From: Octopus sinensis
Lineage: Eukaryota
Length of the DNA stretch: 64,000 nucleotides
Direction: 5' to 3'
NCBI RefSeq assembly: GCF_006345805.1
Contig: NC_043001.1
Span: forward strand, 59,892,001-59,956,000
The notes under the pieces are model-generated. The model was not told where the DNA came from. It ran no database searches and saw only the letters and a program-made list of their open reading frames with translations. Numbering within the stretch: position 1 is the first letter of the stretch; the number at the start of each line of letters is the position of its first letter. Made by a program: the position numbers and the translations under genes. Below, one piece after another: positions 264 through 61,127 of the stretch.

Positions 264-1556
264 CGAGGGGCGTTCAATAAGTAATGCCCCTGACCCACTT
301 CCCATAGTAGTAGAGCAACGAAACTTGGCACAGTTATTAGGCGTTTTATACACAGGAACCATCCAGAGTTACGCATTTCTCCCTTTATTTGATGCAGCTC
401 TGGAGACCGTTTTTGTAGAAGACCCCAGCTTGGTCCTCCAACCACGACGTGACTTCAGAAATCAAGGCTGCATCATCTGGGAAACTCTTTCCTTTCAAAA
501 ACAACTTCATGACTGGGAAGAGGTGAAAATTAAAGGGTGCAAGGTCAGGAAAGTAGGGGCGATGGGGGAGGAGTTCATAGCCATACGCCTGTGCTTCTGA
601 TCTGGCGACAAGCGAGTTGTGGACTGGAGCGTTGTCCTGCAGGAGGAGCATGCCTTTGATGATCTTGCCCCGCCTCTTGATTTTGATAGCTTCTCTTAAT
701 TTCCTCAAAAGTGAAGCATAATAGGCTCCTGTAATTGTGGTACCCTTTGCCAGGAAATCTGTCATCACTACTCCGTCCTGGTCCCAGAAGACTGTGAGCA
801 TGACCTTGCCAGCGGAAGGCTGCACCCTTGCCTTCTTTGGAGGGGGTGAGTCACGGTGCTTCCACTGCATTGACTGAGCTTTGGTCTCTGGATCATCGTG
901 ATGGACCCAGGTTTCATCCTGTGTAATCAGTCTTTTGAACAATTTAGACTCATCTTCTTTGCACATCTCCAAATTCACCCTCGAGTACTCGACGCGTTCT
1001 TGCTTCTGGAATCGGTGTGAGCAACCTGGGAATCCATCTGGCAGACACCTTTTGCATATGCAAATGGTCATGAATGATAGTTTCTACAGACCCGGTATTA
1101 ATCTTGACCTCATGGGCTATTTGGAAAATAGTTATGTGTCGATCTTCCAAAATGGCAGCCTCAACTTGACGGACAGATGCCTCATCAATGGCAGAAAGAG
1201 GGCGACTAGATCTGGGAGCTGTTTCCACAGAGTTCCGACTATGTTTGAATTCACAATGCCAGCGTTTTACAAGGTCATATGATGGGGCATCATCACCATA
1301 AGTTACTTTCATTTCATCAAACGTCTCCCGTGGTGTGCGTCCTTTCAAATACAAAAACCGGATCACTGCTCGACACTCAACAGGCTCTATTTCACACTTG
1401 ACTCAGTTCAAACACCTGTAAATCAGAAACCACAATTAGTTCAGAGCTATAATTTGCCGCTTAATCCATAGAGATATAAATAATTGTACATGCAAAATGC
1501 AGCTAGATCAAACAACAACAAGTGGGTCAGGAGCATTACTTATTGAACGTTCCTCG
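264..1556 (-). mobile_element. Full-length mariner (DD34D-type) transposon, 1293 bp, TA target-site duplication
   Basis: 37-bp TIRs: 264-300 (cgaggggcgttcaataagtaatgcccctgacccactt) and 1520-1556 (3 mismatches). TA at 262-263 and 1557-1558. Confidence 0.95.
340..1390 (-). pseudogene. Frameshifted mariner transposase
   Basis: ORF 950-1366 (HTH region, WIPRLLT) and ORF 385-1071 (TQDETW, LQDNAP, HRPYFPDLAPFNFHLF; third catalytic Asp replaced by Asn) lie in different frames. Confidence 0.9.
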
Positions 1557-3489: not shown

Positions 3490-5546
3490 GGTCGGAAATG
3501 GTTGGACACTGCACGAGAGCGTGCAGAACGGTTTCATCGCTCTGACCGTATCTCGGCTAGCTCTACCGACACGGCTCGAGAAATACGTGTTTCTCGAGCC
3601 GTGTCTGTAGAGCTTATGCCGAACGGGTAGCTTATCCCGAACGGGTAGCGCTTGTCGGTAGCACTGCTAGGTCAGGGATCTCTGGAAGTTGTCCATGGGC
3701 CCTGGCCCGAAAGTCGTCCTGAACAGGCGGGTCAGGTATTCCTCGTCGACGTCCAGGTTCGCTCCGAGCTCGTCGTCGTACCTCCCCCCACTAATCCCCT
3801 ATAGAACGCTTTGGTTGATTGAAATCACTCAAGGTCGACCCGGGACGGCATAGTTGCTTGAGAGTACAAACGACGACCACATCTGCTCACTGTCGTGTAC
3901 GCAGAGCCTGATATGTCGCAGTCTCAGCGCGTGTTTGCGGATCAGCAACCACGGCATACCCAGTCCACCTTTTAACGAGTGTTGACAGCAAATGGATCGC
4001 CTGACCATCGGGACGCATCCTTTCCACAAGAAGCGAAAGAGAATGCTTTCTAGTTTGGTGATGGTAGGGTCGGGACAAGGCACGACGGTCAGGCGGTAGT
4101 AGATGACGGACGCGATGTACGTGTTCGCCACCTCCGCCCGACATTTTAGGGACAGTTTCCTCTCGGCCCATTGCCGGGTGAGAGTGACCACCCTACTCGT
4201 TATCTCCTTCCAGTTCTTCTCCATTTGGAGGTCCGGACCAAACCAGACCCCGAGCAACACGACCGGACCGTCGGTCCAGCGTCCCACGACGGAGGCGCTG
4301 GTGGACGGCATGGGCTTGCTTCTCCAGGTGCCGAGCCGCAATCCCACTGACTTTTCCCTGTTGATTTTCGCTCCTATCACCGCTTCGTAGTCATTCAGTG
4401 TCTCGCTGACCAGCTCGATGTGCTCGTGGCTAGATACTATGATGGTGACGTCGTCCACGTATGCAGACACACTCGTCCCGCATCCCAATTCTCGCGGTAT
4501 GCCCCTCATAGTTGCTAGGTTCCGCAATAATGGCTCGAGAGTCATTACGTAAAGAAGCGACAAAAGGGGGGACCGAACGTACAATGTCAAAAGGTCTCGA
4601 TAGATGTCCATTTACGCGAATTACCGAACGGATACCTCTGTACAAAGCAGCTATTGAGCCGCGGAAGACGGGACCGAAACCAGCTGCTCTGAGGACAGCC
4701 TCCAAGTATCGATGCTCTACTCTATCGAAAGCTTTCGATTGAACCAAATTGATCAGGGCCCCTACCATGCCAGGTTCCTTAACTACCCTGTCTATGATGT
4801 AGCGCATCAGATGGAGGTTGTCATGGATGCTCGGCCCGGCACGGCGCACGTTTGCGCCTTGTCGATGACAAGCGCCAACCTCTTGGCTAACACCTTGGCC
4901 AAAATTTTCAAGTCTACATTAAGCATAGTGATGGGCCTAAAGTTATCTATTACATCCCCTTTGTGTAGATCTCCCTTCAGCAATGTTACGGCTCCTCGGC
5001 TCACAAAACCAGGGATGCTCCCGATTTTGCTGCCAGTTGCAGTACGCCGCTCCCAAGATGTCTCCAAACAAGTCTGCCATACGACTGTAAAGCTTGTAAG
5101 GTAGACCATCCAAACCCGGCGATTTGTTCCTCGAGCATTCTGCCACCGCGTCCCGCAATTCCGCCGCCGTGATGGCACCTTTGCAGCGCCCTGCCTCTCT
5201 TGTCGAGAGTCATGGCAGGCTTTGTAGGTAGGCACTGAAGTCCACCCTACGTTCTTGCCCGCCACTCGTCCCGAACAGTCGGACAAAATGCTGTTGAAAG
5301 GTCTCACACATTTTACTTGGCTCGAGTAATTCGCGCTCCTGTTCATCTACCAGAGACCGAATGGTTGATTTGTTACCCTGTTGCGCCTGTGCCACCCGGG
5401 TCTCTCCCGTGGCTCCAACACCTTCATTCCCTAGAGCACGCATCCTAGCTCTGACAACACATCCTTCCTGTTTGGCATTGAAGTGTTGGTGGAGGACCCA
5501 CCTAGCCGCCAAAACGTCGGATGTGATGCCGCTTCTAACTGCCTCA
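3490..5546 (-). mobile_element. Tx1/L1-clade non-LTR retrotransposon RT relic (frameshifted)
   Basis: Motifs across frames: KSPGLDGLPY, NFRPITMLNVDLKILAKVLAKRL, QTCAVPGR/IHDNLHL, SKAFDRVEH, SAYVDDVT, AKINREKS, FRFLWKG, GGLGMP. Confidence 0.9.
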
Positions 5547-8386: not shown

Positions 8387-8514
<128 letters not shown>

Positions 8515-8523
8515 TAATAATAA

Positions 8524-9686
8524 TGGCTCACGAAGGGGAAAACCATCTTAATTCCCAAATCCAACGAGACAGCAAAACCAGGAAAATACAGACCTATAAC
8601 CTGCCTCCCTACAATGTACAAAGCATTTACTGCAGTAATATCACGAAGATTGAACAAGCACCTGGACGAAAACAACCTATTTCCAGACGAGCATAAAGGA
8701 TGCCGCAAAGGCTCATATGTCTGTAAAGATCAACTAATGATCAATAAAGCCATAACTGAAGACAGCCACAGAAAGAGGAAAGGCCTCAGTATGGCCTGGA
8801 TCGACTACAGAAAGGCGTGTGATAGCAATCCTCCACGCATGGATCCTCGAAACACTAGCCATTAACAAAGTAGGACCAACAATTATAAATTACATAGGAC
8901 ACTCTATGAATAAATGGCAGACAGTGTTACAACTCCAAACAAAAGAGGGACTCGTGAAAACCAAAGCCATCCCCATTGGAGGGAGTCCGCTCTCTCCACT
9001 TCTTTTCTGCTTGGCACTGTCACCTCTATCTAATATGCTAAATATAACTGGATGCAGGTATAAATGTTTCGGCAAAACGATCAGCCACCTTTTATATATG
9101 GATGACCTAAAACTATACGCTACAACTGACAAACAGCTGGAAACACTACTAAAGACAGTTCATAGATTTACCAAAGAAATAGAAATGAAATTTGGATCAG
9201 AATAATGCGCCAAAGTAACCCTGAAAAAAAGGAAAACTAGTTAAGAGTAGCAACATCACACTAGATAAAAACCAATGAAATAAAAGAATTAGACCAAAGC
9301 CAAACTTACAAATACTTAGGAATCCATGAACTAGATAAGACACAGCACACACAAATGAAAGAGAAAATAAAAAAAGAATATTATAGATGAGTTAGATCAA
9401 TACTAAAAACAGAGCTCAATGATAAAAACAAGATAATATATATTAACACTTTGGCCGTCCCAGTTATAAGTTATAGCAACAATATCCTTAACTGGACACT
9501 AAATGAACTGACCAAAATAGATAGGAAAGCAAGAAAAATGATGACAGGATCTAGGATGCATCACCCAAAATCTGACTTACAAAGGCTATATATACAACGT
9601 ATAGGAGGTGGTAGAGGCCTTATACGGCTGGAAAACTTCTATAAAATAACCACCATAGGACTGCAAAAATATCTACTTCAGAAGGA
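8524..9686 (+). mobile_element. R4/Dong-clade non-LTR retrotransposon RT relic, 5'-truncated at (AAT)n
   Basis: WLTKGKTILIPK...YRPITCL; MYKAFTAVIS...KGCRKGS..CKDQLMI...SMAWIDYRKA; LSPLLFCLAL; SHLLYMDDLKLY; RLYIQR.GGGRGL. Confidence 0.9.
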
Positions 9687-9910
9687 CAATCTACTGTATG
9701 TATGTATATATATATACATACATATATATATATATATATAGAATGGTTGTATACTGTCAATCTAACACGAACGTGACAGTAGGGGGGTTACACCACCGCT
9801 CTTTAGCCCTAGGAAGCATCGACGCCTCCTGATGGCTTTGACACGTTTTTCCTGTGTCCTTATATACATTTACGAAGGGGATACAAATACCCCCAGCCGC
9901 CCGGGCTGCA

Positions 9911-9955
9911 TCTAGGGACACGTGCTTCAGGATGATTGTCCTTCGTCGGCCTAGA
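9911..9955 (-). ncRNA. Hammerhead ribozyme copy (GAAA mutated to GAAG)
   Basis: Reverse complement: TCTAGG CCGACGA AGGA caatca TCCT GAAG CACGTG TC CCTAGA. Confidence 0.65.
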
Positions 9956-10299
9956 GTAGCAGACACCGGTCAGCTGACGATATCTGTCTCGACTCTTAAT
10001 GTATATATCTAAATTTCAGTGAAGTCTATTCACTGATTATCAAAATCTATTATCAAAGCCATCAGGAGGCGTCGATGCTTCCTAGGGCTAAATAGCGGTG
10101 ATGTTCCCCGCTACTGTCACGTTCGTGTTAGATTGACAGTATACAACCATTCTATCGCCCCACCACCGTACATGTCTCTACGAGAGATTTAGAAATTTAG
10201 TATTTCTGATTTTGATAATCAGTGAATAGAATTCACTGAAATTTAGATACTTACATTACGAGTCGAGACAGATATCGTCAGCTGACCGGTGTCTGCTCC

Positions 10300-10344
10300 T
10301 CTAGGCCGATGAAGGACAATCATCCTGAAACACGTGTCCCTAGA
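10300..10344 (+). ncRNA. Minimal hammerhead ribozyme, U4C core variant
   Basis: TCTAGG CCGATGA AGGA caatca TCCT GAAA CACGTG TC|CCTAGA. Confidence 0.8.
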
Positions 10345-10562
10345 TGCAGCCCGGCGGCTGGGGATATTTGTCTCCCCTTCGTAAATGTATATAAGGACAC
10401 AGGAAAAATGTGTCAAAGCCATCAGGAGGCGTCGATGCTTCCTAGGGCTAAAGAGCGGTGGTGTAACCCCCTACTGTCACGTTCGTGTTAGATTGACAGT
10501 ATACGACCATTCTATCGCCCCACCACCGTACATGTCTCTACGAGATTTAGAAATTTAGTATT

Positions 10563-10608
<46 letters not shown>

Positions 10609-33296: not shown

Positions 33297-36200
33297 AAAG
33301 TTTGGTCCAGGCCATGTATAACTTAATTGCACCACCTGATAGGATTATCTGAATCCTTTTAAGTCAAGTTTTGTGGTATCATGGTCCATTGAAGTAGTGA
33401 GTTCTTCTTGAATGAGTTAAATCCAGGTATAGGTGGCTTATCTCGTATTTCTTGGTGAAATTTGTCCAGATTCCGTTTAAAGGTGATGGGATCCTTTTCC
33501 TCTTTGATCAGTTTTGGGACAATGTCAAACAGGGTAGGGCTTGATGAGGAAAATAAAGTGTCGCAGTGTACCTATATGTTGTGATCCTGAATTGGGCAGG
33601 GGACGTATGACCCGTGTTCCCACACTTGGATGAACCTTGAAGCTATTGTCCAGGTTGTTTGGCCAATACTGGCGGTATATTCTCTACATCGTGCAAATGA
33701 TGTACCGATCGCAACACGCTGAGAGAGTAGTTTCAAGGCTTTACGGCGGTCCCAGTAATCGAGATCAGTCATGCCTTTAATTATTTTAGTGAGTGTCCCC
33801 CGGGGGGCGATTCAATTTTCGAGATGTTTCGTTTTCTATGGGGAGACCACAGGCGGAAGCAATATTCGAGGTATGGCCGTACAAAGGAGGAAAAAAGTCG
33901 AATGATGACAACGTGTTCTCTGAACCGGAAGGTTCTTAAGATCCAGGAGCTCATCTTACGAGCTATAACAACCTTGTTGTTGATGTGGGCACTCCAACTG
34001 AGATTGTTATCAACAATTACTCTTAGGTTTCAGATATTATTAGATGCTATGGCTGTTTTAGTATAGTCTTTCTTCCAAAATACATCACCTAAAATGTTCC
34101 CTCGTTTATTTGCATTTTGTTTTGTCTGTATATAGATCAGACTGGGTCTTCTTTTTCATTGATGATTTGCTGGAGCTTAGTGTCATCAGCAAATATTTTC
34201 GTTTTGCAGTGTTTTACGACGCTGGAAATGTCGTTTATGTAGATTATAAAGAGGAGCGGGACCAAGACAGTCCCCTGAGGGACACCATTGGTGACTTTTG
34301 CTGGGCTTGAGTGGACTCCATCGACCACAACATGTTGTGTTCTATTCTCCAGGAAATACTCAATCCGGTGTAAAAGTTTCCCACGGATTCTAACATTTGC
34401 CAATTTTGAGAGTAAGATATTATGGCTAACCCTATCAAACGCTTTACTGAAGTCAAGATATATGACATCAGAGTTCGAATCTGTTCCCAAAGCTTTAAGT
34501 ATATCCTCAATGTGGTGTAAGAGCTGTGTTAGACAGTCCCTGCCACAGCGAAAGCGATGCTGACTTGCATTCAGGACTTTGTGGATCTCCAGGAAGCCAG
34601 CTATCCTTGATCTTATCACTCTTACAAACACTTCAATGATGTGCGAGGTGAGTGAGATTGGGCGATAGTTGACCGTGAGCGATCTGTTTCCCTGTTTGAA
34701 AACCAGGATGACAGACTGGGATAGGAGCTGATTCGGTATATAACCTGAGCCTAAAGAATTTCTCCAGAGGTTGGTCAGATGGACAAGTTGGTGTCTACCT
34801 TCCTTCAGGAGATTAGCGGGGAACCTACCAGGACCTACAACAGAATAGTATTTGACCTCATTTATTGCTGCTACGATGTCTGAGGCAGGGAAGGTTATGT
34901 CCGAGATTTTATGTTGGGAATCACCTTCGTTTGATTCATTTACGTCAATATCAGTGGGATCACTAAAGACAGAGCAGTATTGTTTCTGCCATTTCTTAAG
35001 CATTGTATTGAGGAATGCGGTTATCATCGACCAAAGGCCCAATAGGTGAGACAAAACAGAACACTTTTGAGTTCTGTTTGATATTTTTGATTACCCAGTG
35101 TTCCTCTGCAGTTCTTTGATTTTCAATGGAGGCTTTCATGTCGGTCTGCAGATGAAGGTTTTCGAACTCCAGCATCTTCATTGTTGTTGAATATGGATGT
35201 TGTATGTGGGAGTATTTTAATTGGTTGATTTCTTTTATTGAGTCTTTTGATGCGCCTGATCAGGGTTTTTTTCTGTCTAGGGATCTGGTTTCTGTTTGTG
35301 TTAGTGGATTTCGTAGGAGCGTATTTTGAGCATGTATAGGTGACAATGCCATGCAGTCGCAATGTGAGTGGAACTGAGAGTGAAGGAAAAGTCGATGACT
35401 GCCAGATACTTTCTGATTGCTGCTCAGTCCGCTTTGTGGAAGTTTAGGTTGTCAAATAAGTGCAGTGGAGTGGGGTCGGCTGGTTTGGTTTTATATATGC
35501 TGGGAATTAAAATTACAGAGTATCATATTGTTGTCTGCGAGGAGACATTTTTCAACTGAAATACTGTGAACGGAATTAGATTGGTTGGTTAATATTAGAT
35601 CCAAGATCGTTTTATTCTGTCTTCTGGGTTTCGAGTCAGGAAAAAATTATCCATTAAGTTAAAGAGTAATTCTGCTGCTGCTTTGTCTGATTTAGAGCAT
35701 TTGCCTAACTTCAGAGAAATTGTGGCCAGTTTATAAGAAGGAGGTTAAAATCACCCATCACTCGTAAGTTTCCTGAGTTGGATTTTTGAAGGGAGGACTT
35801 TATTTTGTCGAGGCAATCTTCAAAGTAGTTTAGGGGTATTTGGGGAGGCCTGTAAAAACCAACAGAGATTATGTCTTTGGTCTTGTTGAATAGTGATATA
35901 GATTCACAATATCCATTAGAAAATATGCCCTTGGCATCAACTGAAAAGGTGTCATGGAGAAAGATGGCTGTCTCCACCTTATTTCGGTCTGTGCGATCTG
36001 CACAGATGATGGTGAAATCTTTTATTTTCGCCTCGGCATCCATACGTGTGCTGTTTAGGTGAGTTTCAGTAAGGATAAAGAAACGGAAGCAATGTGCCGT
36101 TTCGGCAAGCCAACTGTGTATGTATAGGATCTTCCACTTTTTGGCAATGAGTGATGACTGATGCCACGTACATTTAACGGGAATGCCGAGATAAGGGTAG

Positions 36201-36299
36201 TTTGATGTTTGCATTGTTCTAAGAGCCCAGTGTTATCTTTTATTTTGTTTAGAGGTAGCAATGAGGTTCGTTTTTGTATGGAGTTGTGTGTGTGTGTGC

Positions 36300-46001: not shown

Positions 46002-49000
46002 ACTTAAAATATTTTAGAAAGGTTTTGGCTAGTGTTGGCCCCGGCCATCTCTAACTTAATAGCACCACCTAGTGAAGTATTTCAATTCGGGATTTGGGCA
46101 CCAAGGTCCATTTGAACAGAGAGTTATTGTTTGCGGAGACATATCCGGGTGTGGGTGATTTGTCCGGGACTGTTTGAAGGAATTTGTCCAAAGAATTCTT
46201 GAATTTTGTGTGGTCAGTTTCTGTTTTGACGTGTCCTGGTGTTGAAGAGAGCGGGTCGAATTGAAGTGAAATAATTGTGCCGTATTGTTGTTATGAGATG
46301 CGATTTAGATTTTTTTTGTGGACGGATGGCACGGAGTCCAAGTCTTGGATGTTTTTGAAGGTAATGCCAACATCATTTGGACAGTGCTGATGGAATATTT
46401 TCCACATCATACAGATAATATAGCATTCGTTGGAGTGAATAAAGTTTCAGCTTTTCTAATCGACCCCAGTAGTCGAGGTCTGACATGCCATCTATCTCTT
46501 TCGTGATTGACCTTTGGGGAGCTTCAATTTTCATATTTTGTTTTGTGTAGGGAGACCACAGTTTACAGCAGTATTGAAGCTGGGGTCGGGCAAAAGTGGA
46601 GAAGAGAAGGATAATGGTATTGGAATCTCTCGACTGGAAGGTTCTGAGAATCCAGGAACACATTCTGCGAGCCATGTCAACTTTGCTGCTTATATGTGTA
46701 GCCCAGCTTATGTTGCTGTCCACAGTTACTCCCAAGTCTCAGTAGTTGTTAGATGCCATGAGAAGTTCATCAGAAGGAAGGGAGTATGGGAGTTTCAGAG
46801 CGTCCTTCTTTCCAAAGTGGATCAGTTCGTATTTGTCTTCGTTTAACAACATGTTCTTTTCTGCCCATTGGACAAAAGCCAGTAGGTCTGACTGAAGGCC
46901 TATCCTGTCATCCACACCATTGATGACCTTCTGGAGCTTGGAATCATCAGCGAATATTCTGATGTTACTGTGTTTGATGATATCAGTAATGTCATCAATG
47001 TAGATGATGAAGACAAGTGGGCCCTACACAGTGCCTTGTGGGACACCACTACTGACTTTGCCTGGGCTGGATTTGATTCCTTTGACTACAACATTTTGGG
47101 TTCTTTTTGACAGGAAACACTTGATCCGCTGCAGCAGCTTTCCAGTGACACCAATATTGGACAGCTTTCTCAAAAGGATCTCATGATCAACCCTGTCAAA
47201 GCCCTTGCTGAAATCAAGGTAGATAACATCAGTGTTGGAACCCTCTCCCAAGGCTCTCAAAATGTCATAGAAATGATGCAGTAGCTGCGTCAGGCAATCC
47301 CTTCTATTACAGAATCCATGCTGGTTGGCGTTCAGCATATTATGACTCTCAAGGAAGTGAGTCATTCGCGATCTCACCACTCTCTCAAATACCTTAATGA
47401 TATGAGTGGTGAGTGAGATTGGACGGTAATTCACGGCAAGGGATTTGTTTCTTTTTTCGAAAACTGCGACAACAGACTGGGATAGCAGGTTTTCTGGTAT
47501 ATATCCAGCATCCAGTGAGTTCCGCCACAGATTGGCTAGAGGGGGTGCAAGTTGGTGTCGACATCTTCAAGACACAAGCAGGGAACCTATCGGGACTTAC
47601 TGCTGAATTATGCTTGATTTCCTTTATTGCTGCTAAGACATCAGGGGAGCCAAAGTTATGTCCGATAAAGTGTACTGGGGAGTAACATCACTGATACTGC
47701 CCAGATCAGCCATATCAGGATTGATGAAAACAGAGCAGTATTGTTTCTGCAGCATCTCTCCCATGGTTTAGGCATTGTCTTGAAGAGTACCATTTTCATC
47801 AATCAGTGGGCCAACAGTAGAGCCAGTGACTTTGTGTTTTTTTGCAAATGAAAAGAATACTTTGGGATTAAGTTTGATCTTCTCAATGGCCCAGGCCTCT
47901 TCAGCTCTTCTCTGACTATTGATGGTAGACATCATGTTGTTTTGGAGGTTATGTTTTGTTAATCTCTAGTGACATGATGGAAGTCAGGTTGGTGTGTTGC
48001 TGTGGACAGTATTTCAGCTTGTTTATTTTTTTGTTAATTCTTTTAATTTTTCTGATGAGAGTTTTTCTATTTCTAGGGATTCTGCACTTAGATTTGTTTG
48101 CAGATTTTAATGGGGTGTGTTTTGCACATATGTTTGTAATGGTGTCTACAAATGATTGCCAGGACATTTTGATGTTAGTGGGTGTGTATGTGTGCGTCAA
48201 GGACCAGTCGACGTGTGCAAGATCATTACTGATCGCTTCCCAGTTTGCGTTGCGGAAATCCATAGTGTTAAATGGATGGACAGGAGGGATGACGTTTGTT
48301 TTGCATTTTGGCCAGTGAAATCTTAGATCACAGAGAACCATGTCATGATCAGAGACCAGAGTTTTCTCCACTGCAATATTGTGGATAGTGTCAGTGTGAT
48401 TGCTGAAAATTAGGCCTAGGACGTTTTTGTGACATCTCGTTGGTTCGAGCACCAGTTGGGACAGGAAGAAATCATCCATGAATTCAAGAAGCGATTCCAA
48501 TACCTCCCTGTCAGGGGTTGAGACAGAAGAACCTGGCGGCAGACTGCTTGTAGACCAGTCAACCCCGGGGAGATTGAAGCCCCCCCCCCCATCATTAAGA
48601 TGTTGTCAGGTTGACACTGCTGGATGAAGCACTTTATGTTGTTGAGGCATTCCTTGAAGTATGGTAGAGGCGTTTGGAGTGGTCACAGAGCCCAACAACT
48701 ATTAAGTTGGTTTGACTGAATACAGCGACTGCTTCGCAGTATCCATTAGAAAATATGTTCGTAGCCTCTGTCGCGAAAGAATCATGAACATAAATGGCAG
48801 TCCCACCCCTTCTTCTGCCAGCACGATCAGAACGAATGGCTTTGAAATTTTTAAGTTTCACCTCGGCTTCCAAGTGGAGGTTACTAAGATGGGTTTCAGG
48901 GAGGACGAAGAAAGGGATGTGGTTTGGAGGGGCATCAACCAAGTCCTCAGGGAATTTTATCTTCCATTTTTATCTTCCATTGGTGGAAGGGCTGATAACT

Positions 49001-50819: not shown

Positions 50820-51110
50820 AAAAAAGGAAAGGAAGAAAATGCTGACAAAATAATTTAAGTAAGGGAGAGTGTAATTAATTAGGTGAAAGTTCTTTTTACC
50901 GGTTGCGCATTTGTTATGCTTATCAAAAGATATTTTGAGTGAGATAGAGTTCCTTTCTGTAAATAATCAATCAGAAAGGAACTCTATCTCACTCAAAATA
51001 TCTTTTGATAAGCATAACAAATGCGCAACCGGTAAAAAGAACTTTCACCTAATTAAACACACTCTCCTTTAATTAAATTATTTTGTCAGCATTTTCTTCA
51101 TTTCCTTTTT
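50820..51110. repeat. Near-perfect fold-back palindrome (about 140-bp arms, 12-nt spacer) between (TA)n tracts
   Basis: ...gagttcctttctg taaataatcaat cagaaaggaactc... Confidence 0.9.
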
Positions 51111-51129
51111 TATATATATATATGTATAT

Positions 51130-51187
<58 letters not shown>

Positions 51188-51221
51188 GTGTGTGTGTGTG
51201 TATGTATTTATGTATATATGT

Positions 51222-52685
51222 AAATATTGTTCTCTGGACCGGAAAGTTCTTAAGATCCAGGAACTCATCCTACGAGCTATATCGACCTTCTTGTTGATGT
51301 GTGCACTCCAACTGAGATCTTCATCAACAATTACACCCAGGTCTCTGATATTGTTAGAGGCTGTGAGCGGTTCCCCTGAAGGAAGAGAGTATGGCTGTTC
51401 TAGTGAGGAATTTCTTCCAAAATGCATTAGCTCAAATTTTCCCTCGTTCAGTTGCATTTTGTTTCTGTCTGCCCATTGACTCACAGCATATAGATCAGAC
51501 TGGAGTTGAGTTCGGTCTGCTTCTTCATTGACGATTTGCTGGAGCTTAGTGTCATCAGCAAATATTTTCACTTTGCAGTAATGTACGACACTGGAAAGGT
51601 CGTTTATGTAAATTATGAAGAGTAATGGACCCAAGACAGTCCCCTGAGGGACACCGCTGGTGACTTTTGCTGGGCTTGAGTGGACTCCATCAACTACAAC
51701 ATGTTGTATTCTATTCGCCAGGAAATACTTAATCCAGTGTAGAACTTTTCCACGGATTCCAGCATTTGCCAATTTTGAGAGTAGGATATTATGGTCTACC
51801 CTGTCGAACGCTTTACTGAAGTCAAGATATATGACGGCAGAGTTCGAATCTGTTCCCAAGGCTTTGAGTACATCTTCAATGTGGTGTAAGAGCTGTGTTA
51901 GACAGTCCCTGCCACGGCGAAAGCCATGCTGATTTGCATTTAGGAGTGTGTGGGTCTCCAGAAAGTCAGCTATCCTTGATCTTAACACTCTTTCAAACAC
52001 TTTAAGGATGTGGGAAGTGAGTGAGATTGGGCGATAGTTGAGTGCGAGGGATCTGTTTCCTTGTTTGAAAACCAGGATGACTGACTGGGATAGAAACTGT
52101 TTCGGTATATAACCTGCGTCTAACGAATTTCTCCAGAGGTTGGTCAGAGGGACTGCAAGTTGGTGTCTACATTCCTTCAGGAGACTAGCGGGGAATCTAT
52201 CAGGGCCTACAGCAGAGTAGTATTTGACCTCATTTATTGCTGCTACGATGTCAGTGACAGTGAAGGTTATGTCTGAAATTTTGTTGGGAGTCAACTTCGT
52301 TCGCTTCTCTGACGTCGATATCAGTGGGAACACTAAAGACAGAGCAGTATTGTTTCTGCAGTATTTCTGCCATTTCTTTAGCATCGTGTTGGGGAATGCC
52401 GTTATCATCAATCAATGGCCCAATGGGTGAGACAGTGGTTCTATGCTTATTTGCATAAGAATAGAACACTTTTGGGTTCTGTTTGATGTTTTTGATTAAC
52501 CACTGTTCCTCCACAGCTCTTTGATTTTCAATGGAGTTTTTCCAGCTCTAGCCTTTTCATTGTTGTTGAATGTGGATGTTGTGTGTGGGAATATTTTAAT
52601 TGGTTGATTTTTTTGTTGAGCCTTTTGATGCGCCTGATGAGTGTTTTTCTTCTTTTTAGGGAGCCGGTTTCTGTTTGTGTTAGTA
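51222..52685 (-). mobile_element. CR1/L2-group LINE fragment with an open RT core
   Basis: ORF 51110-52411 contains NYRPISLTS, QHGFR, YLDFSKAFDRV, GVPQGTVLGP, FADDTKL and DLGV. It is closely similar to 33900-35300 and is cut by microsatellites at both ends. Confidence 0.92.
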
Positions 52686-58564: not shown

Positions 58565-59862
58565 GCATACATGCTTACATAATACATACATACATACATA
58601 CATACATGCATACATACATACATACATACATACATACATACATACATACATACATACATTGATACGAGAACATAGGTAATGAAGGATGTAACGAATATTG
58701 ATAAAATTAGATTATTAGATTAGACATATTTATCAAAATGCACAAATTATACCAACTGAGACAATCGAAGTGACATGATCATCACATTGCAACCAGTCAA
58801 CCTAGATAATTCCATAAGAGACATGCGATTTGTTGTTGAATTTCTTGTGTAAGGTATATAATCTGATTTCGTGAATTAGGTTTAAAATATTTATGATGCA
58901 CTAATCAGAGGATAACGGCTTGCCCCATCTTACAAAATTACACATGCCATTATGTGTGTTATACCTTAAATAAATACCTTAAATAAATTTGGTTTGGGAG
59001 AAATATGAAACAACTCATAAATGGAAAGAAGCTTGGAGGATAACTTTACTATGACAAACGACAGGAAAAATTTTAACGTTATGGATACAGTAGATAATAT
59101 AGCCCTGACTCTGTCGGATGAATGGTAAATAGAAAAGTGTACAACCAAAATGTTTTCGCGCCTTCAAGGCGTTTTACGCTATAGAATGTCTAAAACAAAG
59201 TCCCTTAAGATATTGTGCAAGTGGAAAATGATGAATAGTTTAAAAGATTTATAAAAATAAAACGTGAAGTAATTGGGTTTCCATAAGTCTATATTTTATG
59301 CTTCTATTGTGAGGAGCTACAGCAGTTAGGAAAAAAGCCAACGAAAGATGATGTTATAGAAAGCTCGCCTACACTATTTTAGATGACAGAAATGATTGGG
59401 GATAAAGAATTGGCACTCAGAGAAGATATCTGCTGTTAGTTGTAACAAAATTGTACTCGTAAACATAACCAAAGATGTAGACTGTTACTACATTCAGTTT
59501 TACATAGGAACAGGGTTGTTGTCATATTCAAACAGATATTCATAATATCGTCACCTATAAAGAATTTCACTGATGATGATGATGATGATGATGATGAAGA
59601 GGATGATGATGATGATGTCTGTCTAAAAGATGTGGGTATTACCGCATTCTTTGGTATTTCCTTGTGCATGCCTCTTCAGATATATATATATATAACGTAA
59701 AGTGTAACAGCCATCTCAATATGGCTAACCACAAAGTGGGGGTGTTACTGTAGCTTTTAGCCCCAGGAGATCGACGTCTCCAGCTGGCTTTAGACACACT
59801 TTCTGTGCCCTTTAGGTATTTGCAAAGGGAAGCCACCCCTTCCTCGTAAGCCTTAGTGATAC

Positions 59863-59906
59863 GCACCGGACCGCGGTTTCGAGATTATTGTCTCTTATCA
59901 ACGGGC
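59863..59906 (-). ncRNA. Minimal hammerhead ribozyme, U3-A8 core variant
   Basis: Reverse complement: gcCCG TTGATAA GAGA caataa TCTC GAAA CCGCGG TC|CGGtgc. Confidence 0.75.
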
Positions 59907-60220
59907 GGTGACCACCAGGTCACGATGGAAGGCAAGGCTTCCCTTTGCTAATACCTAAAGGGCACAGAAAGTGTGTCTAAAGCCAGCTGGAGACGTCGAT
60001 CTCCTGGGGCTAAAAGCTACAGTAACACCCCCACTTTGTGGTTAGCCATATTGAGATGGCTGTTACACTTTACGTTGTTGAGCGGTTACTGTATACATCT
60101 CGCTCTGAGATTTAATAATGCTTACAGTCAGTTTTTCGAAATCAGTGGCAGACGTCACTAGAAAAACTCTTATATATTTGCAAAGCAAGCCTTACCTTCC
60201 ATCGTGACCTGGTGGTTACC

Positions 60221-60264
60221 GCCCGTTGATAAGAGACAATAATCTCGAAACCGCGGTCATGTGC
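60221..60264 (+). ncRNA. Second copy of the U3-A8 hammerhead (helix I damaged)
   Basis: gcccg TTGATAA GAGA caataa TCTC GAAA CCGCGG TC atgtgc. Confidence 0.6.
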
Positions 60265-60470
60265 GTATCACTAAGGCTTACGAGGAAGGGGTGGCTCCCC
60301 TTTGCAAATACCTAAAGGGCACAGAAAGTGTGTCTAAAGCCAGCTGGAGACGTCGATCTCCTGGGGCTAAAAGCTACAGTAACACCCCCACTTTGTGGTT
60401 AGCCATATGGCTGTTACACTTTACGTTGTTGAGCAGTTACTGTTTACATCTCGCTCTGAGATTTAATAAT

Positions 60471-60535
<65 letters not shown>

Positions 60536-61127
60536 CATACATTTATTGAACCTATGAACATCTAGACATTTTTTTATTTCCGAGCATATTTTCGAGCTCA
60601 TGTTTCACTAGTATTTCGCTAAAGACCATCTCATTCTGTTATGCGGAATTCAATAGGAAAAACGTTCTCATAACGGAATTCTCTGGAATGTGTAATTTTA
60701 GAAGAAGGGGCAAGCCGTTATCCTCTGATTAGAGCATCGTAAATATTTTAGACCCAATTCACAAAATGAGATTATATAACTGGCACAATAAATTCAACAA
60801 CAAAATGCATGTCTCTTATGAAATTATTTAGTTTGAACGGTTCCAATGCGATGATCATATCACTTCGATTGTCGCAGTTGGTATAATTTGTGTATTTTGA
60901 TAAATATGTCTAATCTAATAATCCAAATTTATCATTATTCGTTACATCCTTCATTACCCATGTTTTCGTATCAATGTATGTATGTATGTATGTATGTATG
61001 TATGTATGTATGTATGTATGTATGTATGTATGTATGTATGTATTTATTTATCTATCTATCTAGCTAGCTAGCTAGCTAGCCATTTACTTATCTGTCTTTC
61101 TGCCTGTCTCGCTGTCTGTCTGTCTCT

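What the first reader, a model, noticed from the sequence alone, without database searches (positions are those of the whole stretch)
9739..10568. Two homologous ~360-nt HHR families with the same inverted-plus-tandem architecture and a conserved second stem-loop
Seen: 9739-10568 and 59694-60468 both read (TA)n - inverted copy - partial direct copy - full unit - (TA)n, with periods of about 360 and 357 nt. The HHR loop II is caatca versus caataa. Downstream both keep an AGCC..GGAG-(gtcga loop)-CT(T)CC..GGCT stem-loop (about 10417-10449 and 60338-60369) despite divergence, and neither has a conserved ORF. Inference: a non-coding retroelement lineage whose second hairpin may be an RT-recognition, packaging or kissing-loop signal. 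The architecture matches PLE-type integration.
Basis: partly seen in the sequence, partly recalled or inferred. Interest (0 to 1): 0.72.

Follow-up and report, generated by a model that had tools for sequence, protein, structure and literature searches.

The report
Penelope-type hammerhead retrozymes with conserved hairpins

Summary
Observation confirmed. Both loci are dispersed insertions of two families (A, B) of one large lineage of ~350-360-nt non-coding units with a type I hammerhead: animal non-LTR retrozymes (7,666 matches to a lineage motif, control 0). The cores are variants: U4C in A, U3-A8 in B. Arms end at two fixed homologous sites 44-59 nt apart, often in (TA)n; two autonomous Neptune-like Penelope elements of the same genome show the same signature. 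The second stem-loop is real: over 35 subfamily representatives (60% mean identity) one pair covaries at E=0.002 among proposed pairs (not significant in an all-pairs test), and 4 of 6 upper-stem pairs change on both sides. Its loop is mostly GAUG, not gtcga, so a kissing loop is not supported; the conserved palindrome is hammerhead helix III. No autonomous element I sampled carries the hairpin, so RT recognition stays a hypothesis; a CUC/GAG tail hairpin shared with one young autonomous family is a post hoc lead. Cleavage and circles untested. The class and its Penelope link are in print, and this scan found such elements many times before on other DNA of this genome, and similar second motifs in two other genomes.

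The parts
9697..9740 (.). (TA)n-rich target, left of locus A; it also interrupts an older non-LTR RT fragment
9738..10047 (-). Inverted arm of A, unit positions 1-309, ending at internal site 1
9911..9955 (-). Hammerhead of the inverted arm of A; private change at core position 15.1, predicted inactive
10048..10052 (.). Junction of the two arms: 5 inserted bases within a short duplication
10053..10210 (+). 5'-truncated direct lap of A (positions 207-361), no hammerhead
10211..10568 (+). Full unit of family A, 358 nt, GC 0.455, folding z -8.1
10300..10344 (+). Type I hammerhead, U4C core variant, palindromic helix III, predicted cut after 10338, at the tip of a long rod
10396..10414 (+).
10417..10449 (+). 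Hairpin b, the 'second stem-loop': 4 bp, 4x3 internal loop, 6 bp; covarying upper stem
10513..10515 (+). Site 1: fixed 3' end of inverted arms (inferred internal RT start), 66 nt after hairpin b
10516..10568 (+). Tail between site 1 and site 2, with a CUC/GAG hairpin
10567..10606 (.). (TA)n target, right of locus A
59680..59694 (.). Short (TA)n, left of locus B
59694..59953 (-). Inverted arm of B, unit positions 62-321, with an intact U3-A8 hammerhead
59922..60119 (+). 5'-truncated direct lap of B (from position 167); overlaps the inverted arm by 32 nt that pair in the rod
60120..60470 (+). Full unit of family B, 351 nt (private 6-nt deletion), GC 0.456, folding z -4.8
60220..60265 (+). Type I hammerhead, U3-A8 core, palindromic helix III, predicted cut after 60258; two private changes weaken stem I in this copy
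60318..60334 (+). Hairpin a of B
60338..60368 (+). Hairpin b of B
60426..60428 (+). Site 1 of B, 65 nt after hairpin b
60475..60539 (.). (TA)n target, right of locus B

Best explanation
The two loci are dispersed insertions of two families of one lineage of non-coding, hammerhead-bearing ~360-nt units (animal non-LTR retrozymes) that are likely copied into TA-rich DNA by the protein of an autonomous Penelope-like element, and the second stem-loop is a conserved predicted RNA hairpin that probably helps dock that protein or a host adaptor. Shown: unit anatomy, head-to-tail laps without an ORF, two fixed 3' ends, microhomology between arms, 10-15-bp duplications, one template per insertion, covariation. 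Inferred: multimeric transcripts are cut by dimeric hammerheads (palindromic helix III) and ligated to circles; the PLE protein nicks both strands of an AT-rich target and primes two cDNAs, one at site 2 running more than one lap and one at site 1; the two 5'-truncated cDNAs join through a few complementary bases, giving inverted + partial + full. These two copies have one hammerhead per strand and would not release a monomer on their own. My odds: class and PLE mobilisation 0.9; hairpin b selected as RNA structure 0.85; docking role about 0.45.
For: Families: 2,125 and 3,171 first-look candidates, 40 scored each; 7,666 exact matches to a two-hairpin motif, 0 for the control. Ends: 85 of 103 direct arms end at site 2 and 39 of 58 inverted arms at site 1 in families A-D, at homologous places 64-66 nt after hairpin b, tails 44-59 nt. 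Same signature in autonomous RT+GIY-YIG elements of this genome: inverted arms end at one upstream site in 7 of 10 (PLE-1) and 5 of 6 (PLE-2), (TA)n follows 25 of 30 and 24 of 30; two RT starts bounding a tail are shown in vitro for anole PAc (PMC11167929). Direct arm longer than one unit in 24/28, 21/29, 16/22, 24/25 loci (hits chosen for a full unit). Laps of one insertion agree at 493 of 528 polymorphic-site comparisons against 0.49-0.59 between loci; 28 of 58 inverted arms cross the cut site, 3 of 58 stop near it. Covariation: stem I, stem II and hairpin b pairs at E<0.05 among 49 proposed pairs; hairpin b upper helix Fisher p 7.7e-6, slid controls 0.41-0.79; 4 of 6 pairs change on both sides, 0 of 500 shuffles reach the score. 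Core 3:8 pair C-G 19, U-A 8 of 32. Helix III perfect palindrome in 19 of 34, at least 9 different sequences.
Against: No autonomous element sampled shares DNA or the hairpin model with the units (96 loci; 99 loci; 60 loci), so the helper is not named and the docking role has no direct support. No pair is significant in the all-pairs test (best E 0.077; hairpin b pair E 1.6). 26 of 35 representatives came from pattern-selected loci, which fixes hairpin a and part of hairpin b. The distance cut site to hairpin b is as constant (78-82 nt) as hairpin b to site 1, so spacing does not single it out. Retrozyme tails (44-59 nt) are longer than those of PLE-1 and PLE-2 (about 25-40 nt). Only 11 of 29 B loci touch (TA)n. 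U4C lowers cleavage in vitro (PMC3088659), 8 of 9 Xenopus retrozymes did not cleave (bioRxiv 2026.07.22.740005), and PAc inserts from unprocessed RNA (PMC11167929), so the circle step may be dispensable.
Confidence: 0.8

Rival explanations
1. Same class and same mobilisation, but hairpins a/b serve RNA stability, processing, transcription or a host-protein contact unrelated to RT capture; the true start signal is the tail hairpin and its AT-rich surroundings.
For: The two-hairpin model is absent from all PLE ends sampled, whereas a CUC-N3-7-GAG hairpin lies between the two ends in 18 of 25 retrozyme representatives and in the PLE-1 tail; background 24 of 1,259 windows.
Against: The tail match is 6 bases, found post hoc, and PLE-2 lacks it. 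In PAc the active RNA runs from about 90 nt upstream of the first RT start to just past the tail (PMC11167929), a span that in these units would begin at hairpin b.
Confidence: 0.4
2. The template is an uncut multimeric transcript from tandem source loci, not a circle; the hammerhead is incidental to insertion.
For: PAc uses unprocessed RNA and hammerhead mutants insert normally (PMC11167929); family A spread with a U4C core; arrays of 3 units exist (L122, L029).
Against: Stems I and II, the 3:8 pair and helix III palindromes are maintained by compensatory change, so the ribozyme fold is selected; circles are shown for coral, mussel and axolotl retrozymes (PMC7229834). Lap concordance fits either model.
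Confidence: 0.3
3. The loci are merely 5'-truncated stubs (pLTR ends) of an autonomous PLE.
For: Inverted + partial tandem + tail in (TA)n is the standard PLE footprint (PMC8557442 passages).
Against: Upstream of a full unit comes the 3' end of another unit, never an ORF, in 85 of 104 loci; PLE protein hits in 210 retrozyme loci are scattered fragments at unrelated distance or orientation; no long PLE-like frame upstream of 93 motif matches.
Confidence: 0.05
4. Hairpin b is a kissing-loop dimerisation signal with a self-complementary gtcga loop.
For: The loop holds a TCGA palindrome in both window copies and in the A clade.
Against: Loop columns read GATG in 15 and GTCG in 9 of 35; a 4-nt palindrome is present in 12 of 33 loops, 7 of them one clade; half of family B has GATGA. 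No loop-loop covariation among the top 45 pairs.
Confidence: 0.05

Closest known systems
Animal non-LTR retrozymes (Cervera and de la Pena 2020, PMC7229834, parts 2-4 of 6 read, supplement not readable; Li, Clavereau and Pollet, bioRxiv 10.64898/2026.07.22.740005, parts 1-3 of 5 read, supplements not seen)
   Same: Type I hammerhead in 350-360-nt non-coding head-to-tail units, GC below 50%, highly self-paired, duplications longer than 4 bp, coexisting with PLEs; mussel units are 350-390 nt.
   Different: Mostly 1-2 laps with an inverted arm and two fixed ends, not described in the parts read; variant cores; a covarying hairpin module outside the ribozyme, whereas a 2020 review says these repeats show no conserved motif pointing to their helper (PMC7761336, passages). 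Unlike Xenopus families, no DNA link to a PLE terminal repeat was found.
Insertion units of EN+ Penelope-like elements, and anole PAc (Craig et al. 2021, PMC8557442, 12 passages; Frangieh et al. 2024, PMC11167929, parts 1-3 of 4)
   Same: 5' truncation, partial tandem, inverted 5' copy, tail between two RT starts, AT-rich or (TA)n targets.
   Different: No ORF; tail 44-59 nt against 30-40; hammerhead cut site 173-178 nt before the first end; a canonical-size hammerhead on a long rod rather than a minimal one.
Hammerhead core variants U3-A8 and U4C (PMC4209133 parts 1-2 of 4; PMC3088659 section 8 and passages)
   Same: U3-A8 reported in Schistosoma PLEs and as a natural, active covariation; U4C reported in a viroid with reduced in vitro activity.
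   Different: Here U4C is fixed in a high-copy animal retrozyme subfamily and both states alternate with the canonical core within one lineage.

Membership tests
Animal non-LTR retrozyme | Type I hammerhead in the unit | tested here: met
   Stems, core and triplet present; stems I, II and pair 3:8 covary; cores are variants
Animal non-LTR retrozyme | Head-to-tail units of about 150-450 bp | tested here: met
   351-361 nt; over one lap in 85 of 104 loci, up to 3.2 laps
Animal non-LTR retrozyme | No coding capacity; GC below 50%; no tRNA-derived part | tested here: met
   ORFs 8-56 aa, unshared; GC 0.43-0.46; ARAGORN 0 in 8 loci
Animal non-LTR retrozyme | Target duplications longer than 4 bp | tested here: met
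   10-15 bp in 10 of 31 loci outside (TA)n; unreadable at the two window loci
Animal non-LTR retrozyme | Two consecutive complete hammerheads ('active' copy, Li et al.) | tested here: not met
   Each window locus has one hammerhead per strand; met by other copies such as L018, L122
Animal non-LTR retrozyme | Self-cleavage and monomer-size circular RNA | not testable with these tools
   Only assembled contigs of runs guessed to be RNA were on hand
PLE-type insertion | 5' truncation, partial tandem, inverted 5' copy, two 3' ends bounding a tail | tested here: met
   same pattern in PLE-1 and PLE-2
PLE-type insertion | AT-rich or microsatellite target | tested here: met
   (TA)n at 21/28, 11/29, 19/22, 21/24 loci
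Autonomous PLE | ORF with RT and GIY-YIG joined to the repeat | tested here: not met
Derivative of a named PLE pLTR | Sequence similarity to the terminal repeat of an autonomous family | tested here: inconclusive
   None in 156 PLE loci of Neptune-like and one other C-terminal-EN group; Poseidon and Naiad families not sampled
Kissing-loop dimer signal | Conserved self-complementary loop | tested here: not met

The most novel reading that the evidence does not exclude
The covarying two-hairpin module plus the CUC/GAG tail hairpin are the cis-signals by which an animal retrozyme captures a Penelope protein and sets its two RT starts, and the young Neptune-like family PLE-1 (intact 781-aa frames, U3-A8 hammerhead, (TA)n targets, tail with the same hairpin) is the helper: a named parasite-helper pair that can be reconstituted in vitro.
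Probability: 0.25. Interest if true: 0.65.

Novelty: new member of a known kind. Interest (0 to 1): 0.38.

Why it matters
How animal retrozymes are mobilised is still inferred from co-occurrence and pLTR similarity. This lineage adds a direct insertion footprint shared with autonomous PLEs of the same genome, a covariation-supported fold outside the ribozyme, and young helper candidates with intact frames, which makes helper identity, circle-versus-multimer template and the role of each hairpin testable with the existing PAc-type assay. The class, the PLE link, the architecture and both core variants are already in print, so the surprise is modest.

Tried and rejected
Rfam at gathering: 0 hits. 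Search for the autonomous partner: GIY-YIG family search and an RT protein search gave Neptune-like and other PLE loci; nhmmer with unit profiles, a junction profile and the hairpin covariance model hit only nested retrozyme insertions (L097, L109, L110 read in full; L270, L313 and five hits judged by position only) and one weak 44-nt flank hit (L079, E 0.004). Expression: no RNA holder listed on record; contigs of runs guessed to be RNA match both families in short pieces, which cannot show strand, level or circles. G-U versus A-C asymmetry was counted but discarded, because the selecting pattern allowed G-U and forbade A-C in hairpin a. A pol III B-box reading of the loop was rejected by eye (recalled consensus; most loops are GATG). 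A vestigial second hammerhead at the 5' hairpin was considered and left as weak. One representative without an anchor (A7) was dropped before the 35-row alignment and one with a deleted hairpin (A4b); duplicate loci (L019, L023, L049, L115, L119, L126, L159) were removed before counts. One loop row (B1b) was mis-parsed and is not counted among the 12. Literature searches listed no paper on cephalopod retrozymes or on a conserved non-ribozyme motif in them; subscription journals and Repbase were not searchable, PMC5785218 is not held, and the supplement of PMC7229834 (structures of many retrozymes) could bear on this.

Full report
Observation. Both loci have the architecture described. A: inverted arm 9738-10047, a 5-base junction, a partial lap 10053-10210 and a full unit 10211-10568 between (TA)n runs; B: inverted arm 59694-59953, partial lap 59922-60119 and full unit 60120-60470. 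Spacings are 360 and 357. No ORF is shared.

The hammerheads. Rfam misses them at gathering (weak HH9 hits for B) because both cores are variants. Family A has C at position 4 in 25 of 28 copies (1 canonical, 2 unparsed); family B reads TTGATAA, a U3-A8 pair, in 26 of 29. U3-A8 is reported in Schistosoma PLEs (PMC4209133) and is active (PMC3088659); U4C is a viroid variant with lower in vitro activity (PMC3088659). Across 35 representatives the 3:8 pair is C-G in 19 and U-A in 8 of 32. Helix III is a perfect palindrome in 19 of 34 rows by a crude parse, with at least 9 different sequences, the hallmark of dimer-acting type I hammerheads (PMC4209133). Each window locus has only one hammerhead per strand, and two of the four carry private damage, so these copies are probably dead ends.

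The lineage. DNA searches gave 2,125 and 3,171 first-look candidates for A and B (40 scored each). Related families C and D turned up in the flanks of unrelated loci (1,989 and 2,659 candidates), sisters of A through variants seen (591 matches), and a degenerate two-hairpin pattern matches 7,666 places with 0 for the reversed control. I took 35 representatives of about seven clades, mean identity 0.60.

Insertion footprint. In A-D, 85 of 103 direct arms end at one site and 39 of 58 inverted arms at another, 44-59 nt upstream, at homologous positions. Arms mostly overlap by 0-7 bases; in locus B by 32 bases that pair in the rod. (TA)n touches 21/28, 11/29, 19/22 and 21/24 loci; 10 of 31 other loci show 10-15-bp duplications. 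Laps within an insertion agree at 493 of 528 polymorphic comparisons (0.49-0.59 between loci), and rare variants are shared in 9-18% within against about 1% or less between loci: one template per event. 28 of 58 inverted arms run through the predicted cut site and 3 stop near it, so the template is a circle or an uncut multimer, not a cut monomer. The genome holds young RT + GIY-YIG elements with 775-781-aa frames ('Neptune-like' from their cysteine linker, no tree made). They leave the same footprint: inverted arms end at a single upstream site in 7 of 10 (PLE-1) and 5 of 6 (PLE-2) cases, with (TA)n after 25 of 30 and 24 of 30 copies. This matches the published PLE tail (PMC8557442) and the two internal RT starts of PAc (PMC11167929).

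Not PLE stubs. Upstream of a full unit lies the end of another unit in 85 of 104 loci (loci chosen for a full unit). PLE protein hits in 210 retrozyme loci are scattered nested fragments. No PLE end among 156 loci matches the unit profiles or the hairpin model; Poseidon and Naiad families were not sampled.

The second stem-loop. I ran my own R-scape-like test (G-test with APC, 150 tree-based null alignments; not R-scape). Among 49 pairs proposed by RNAalifold on the same alignment, four reach E<0.05: two in stem I, one in stem II and one in the upper stem of hairpin b (G-C 19, A-U 10; four switches on the tree; E 0.002); three more hairpin b pairs have p 0.002-0.022. In the all-pairs test none is significant (best E 0.077; this pair ranks third, E 1.6). 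Helix-level Fisher p is 7.7e-6 for the upper stem against 0.41-0.79 when slid (pairs are not independent). The tool count on a separate alignment gives 95% of cells paired, 4 of 6 upper pairs changed on both sides, 0 of 500 shuffles (this control ignores relatedness). Caveat: 26 of 35 rows came from pattern-selected loci, which fixes hairpin a and part of the 5' strand of b, though not the covarying pair; that pair also differs between the two window copies (G-C in A, A-U in B). The loop is GATG in 15 and GTCG in 9 of 35 rows and about half of family B has GATGA, so the gtcga loop and the kissing idea fail. Hairpin b ends 64-66 nt before site 1 in all four families, but its distance to the cut site is just as constant.

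Mechanism. Most likely: read-through transcripts of multi-lap copies are cut by dimeric hammerheads and ligated to circles (inferred from PMC7229834); a PLE protein binds the RNA, nicks both strands of an AT-rich target and primes two cDNAs at sites 1 and 2; the truncated cDNAs join through microhomology. Hairpins a and b are the best-conserved part outside the core and lie in the span that PAc needs around its starts, so I favour a docking role (about 0.45), closely followed by a stability, processing or transcription role (about 0.4). A post hoc lead favours the tail instead: a CUC/GAG hairpin lies between the two ends in 18 of 25 representatives and in PLE-1 (background 24 of 1,259 windows), and PLE-1 also has a U3-A8 hammerhead; its tail is shorter and PLE-2 lacks the hairpin.

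Known and new. The element is a non-LTR retrozyme by every feature I could test; cleavage and circles could not be tested (only contigs of runs guessed to be RNA). The PLE origin of such elements is argued in bioRxiv 10.64898/2026.07.22.740005. A 2020 review states that they show no conserved motif pointing to a helper (PMC7761336), and my searches listed no description of this lineage, so the covarying module is a small addition. Earlier notes of this scan describe the same kind of element many times in this genome and similar second motifs in two other genomes; I did not test whether those are homologous. Verdict: real, new member of a known kind, interest 0.38.

Noticed in passing
L261, L262, L264, L265, L266 (for example G000:C2:46825500-46830000; C2:69190000-69198700): Sister subfamilies of family A are interrupted at one fixed site in the 5' strand of the rod (about 19-bp duplication) by a Tx1/L1-like element: a full copy with AP endonuclease and RT (L265) and 1.6-kb versions with only the first frame, which has no Pfam match. 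Earlier scan notes mention this too.
   Followed up: partly
L091, L092, L067, L068 (PLE-1); L074, L075, L079: Autonomous Neptune-like PLEs carry minimal hammerheads with U3-A8 cores; L079 appears by eye to have A3-U8. PLE-1 has several intact 781-aa frames and a 3' region with repeated CCAAT-like and TGACGT boxes.
   Followed up: partly
window 8756-9690: Broken non-LTR RT fragment (Pfam RVT_1; resembles R4/Dong by recalled motif) that ends at the (TA)n run holding locus A, downstream of an (AAT)n array at 8387-8524.
   Followed up: no
window 10211-10250 and L213: In A1 and D3 the 5' hairpin is preceded by a TTGANAA-like motif and followed by GAAA, like a vestigial minimal hammerhead; stem I is poor and other subfamilies do not keep it.
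   Followed up: partly
window 60339-60348 and families C-H: The 5' strand of hairpin b contains an 8-nt palindrome in B, C, E, G and H and a different one in D, absent from the A clade; could be a by-product of the stem changes.
   Followed up: no
L267, L270-L315: A further abundant PLE group (8,315 first-look candidates, frames up to 1,124 aa, C-terminal GIY-YIG-like domain, long AT-rich 3' regions), clade not determined.
   Followed up: partly
window 385-1402, 3829-5346, 34137-36232, 46373-48605, 51110-52411: Mariner-like transposase remnant and several non-LTR RT/endonuclease fragments (names by recalled motifs).
   Followed up: no
runs X17-X19: Three further organism labels hold the family A stretch in part, and organism B's run holds many family B-like contigs, so the lineage is not confined to this genome.
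   Followed up: no
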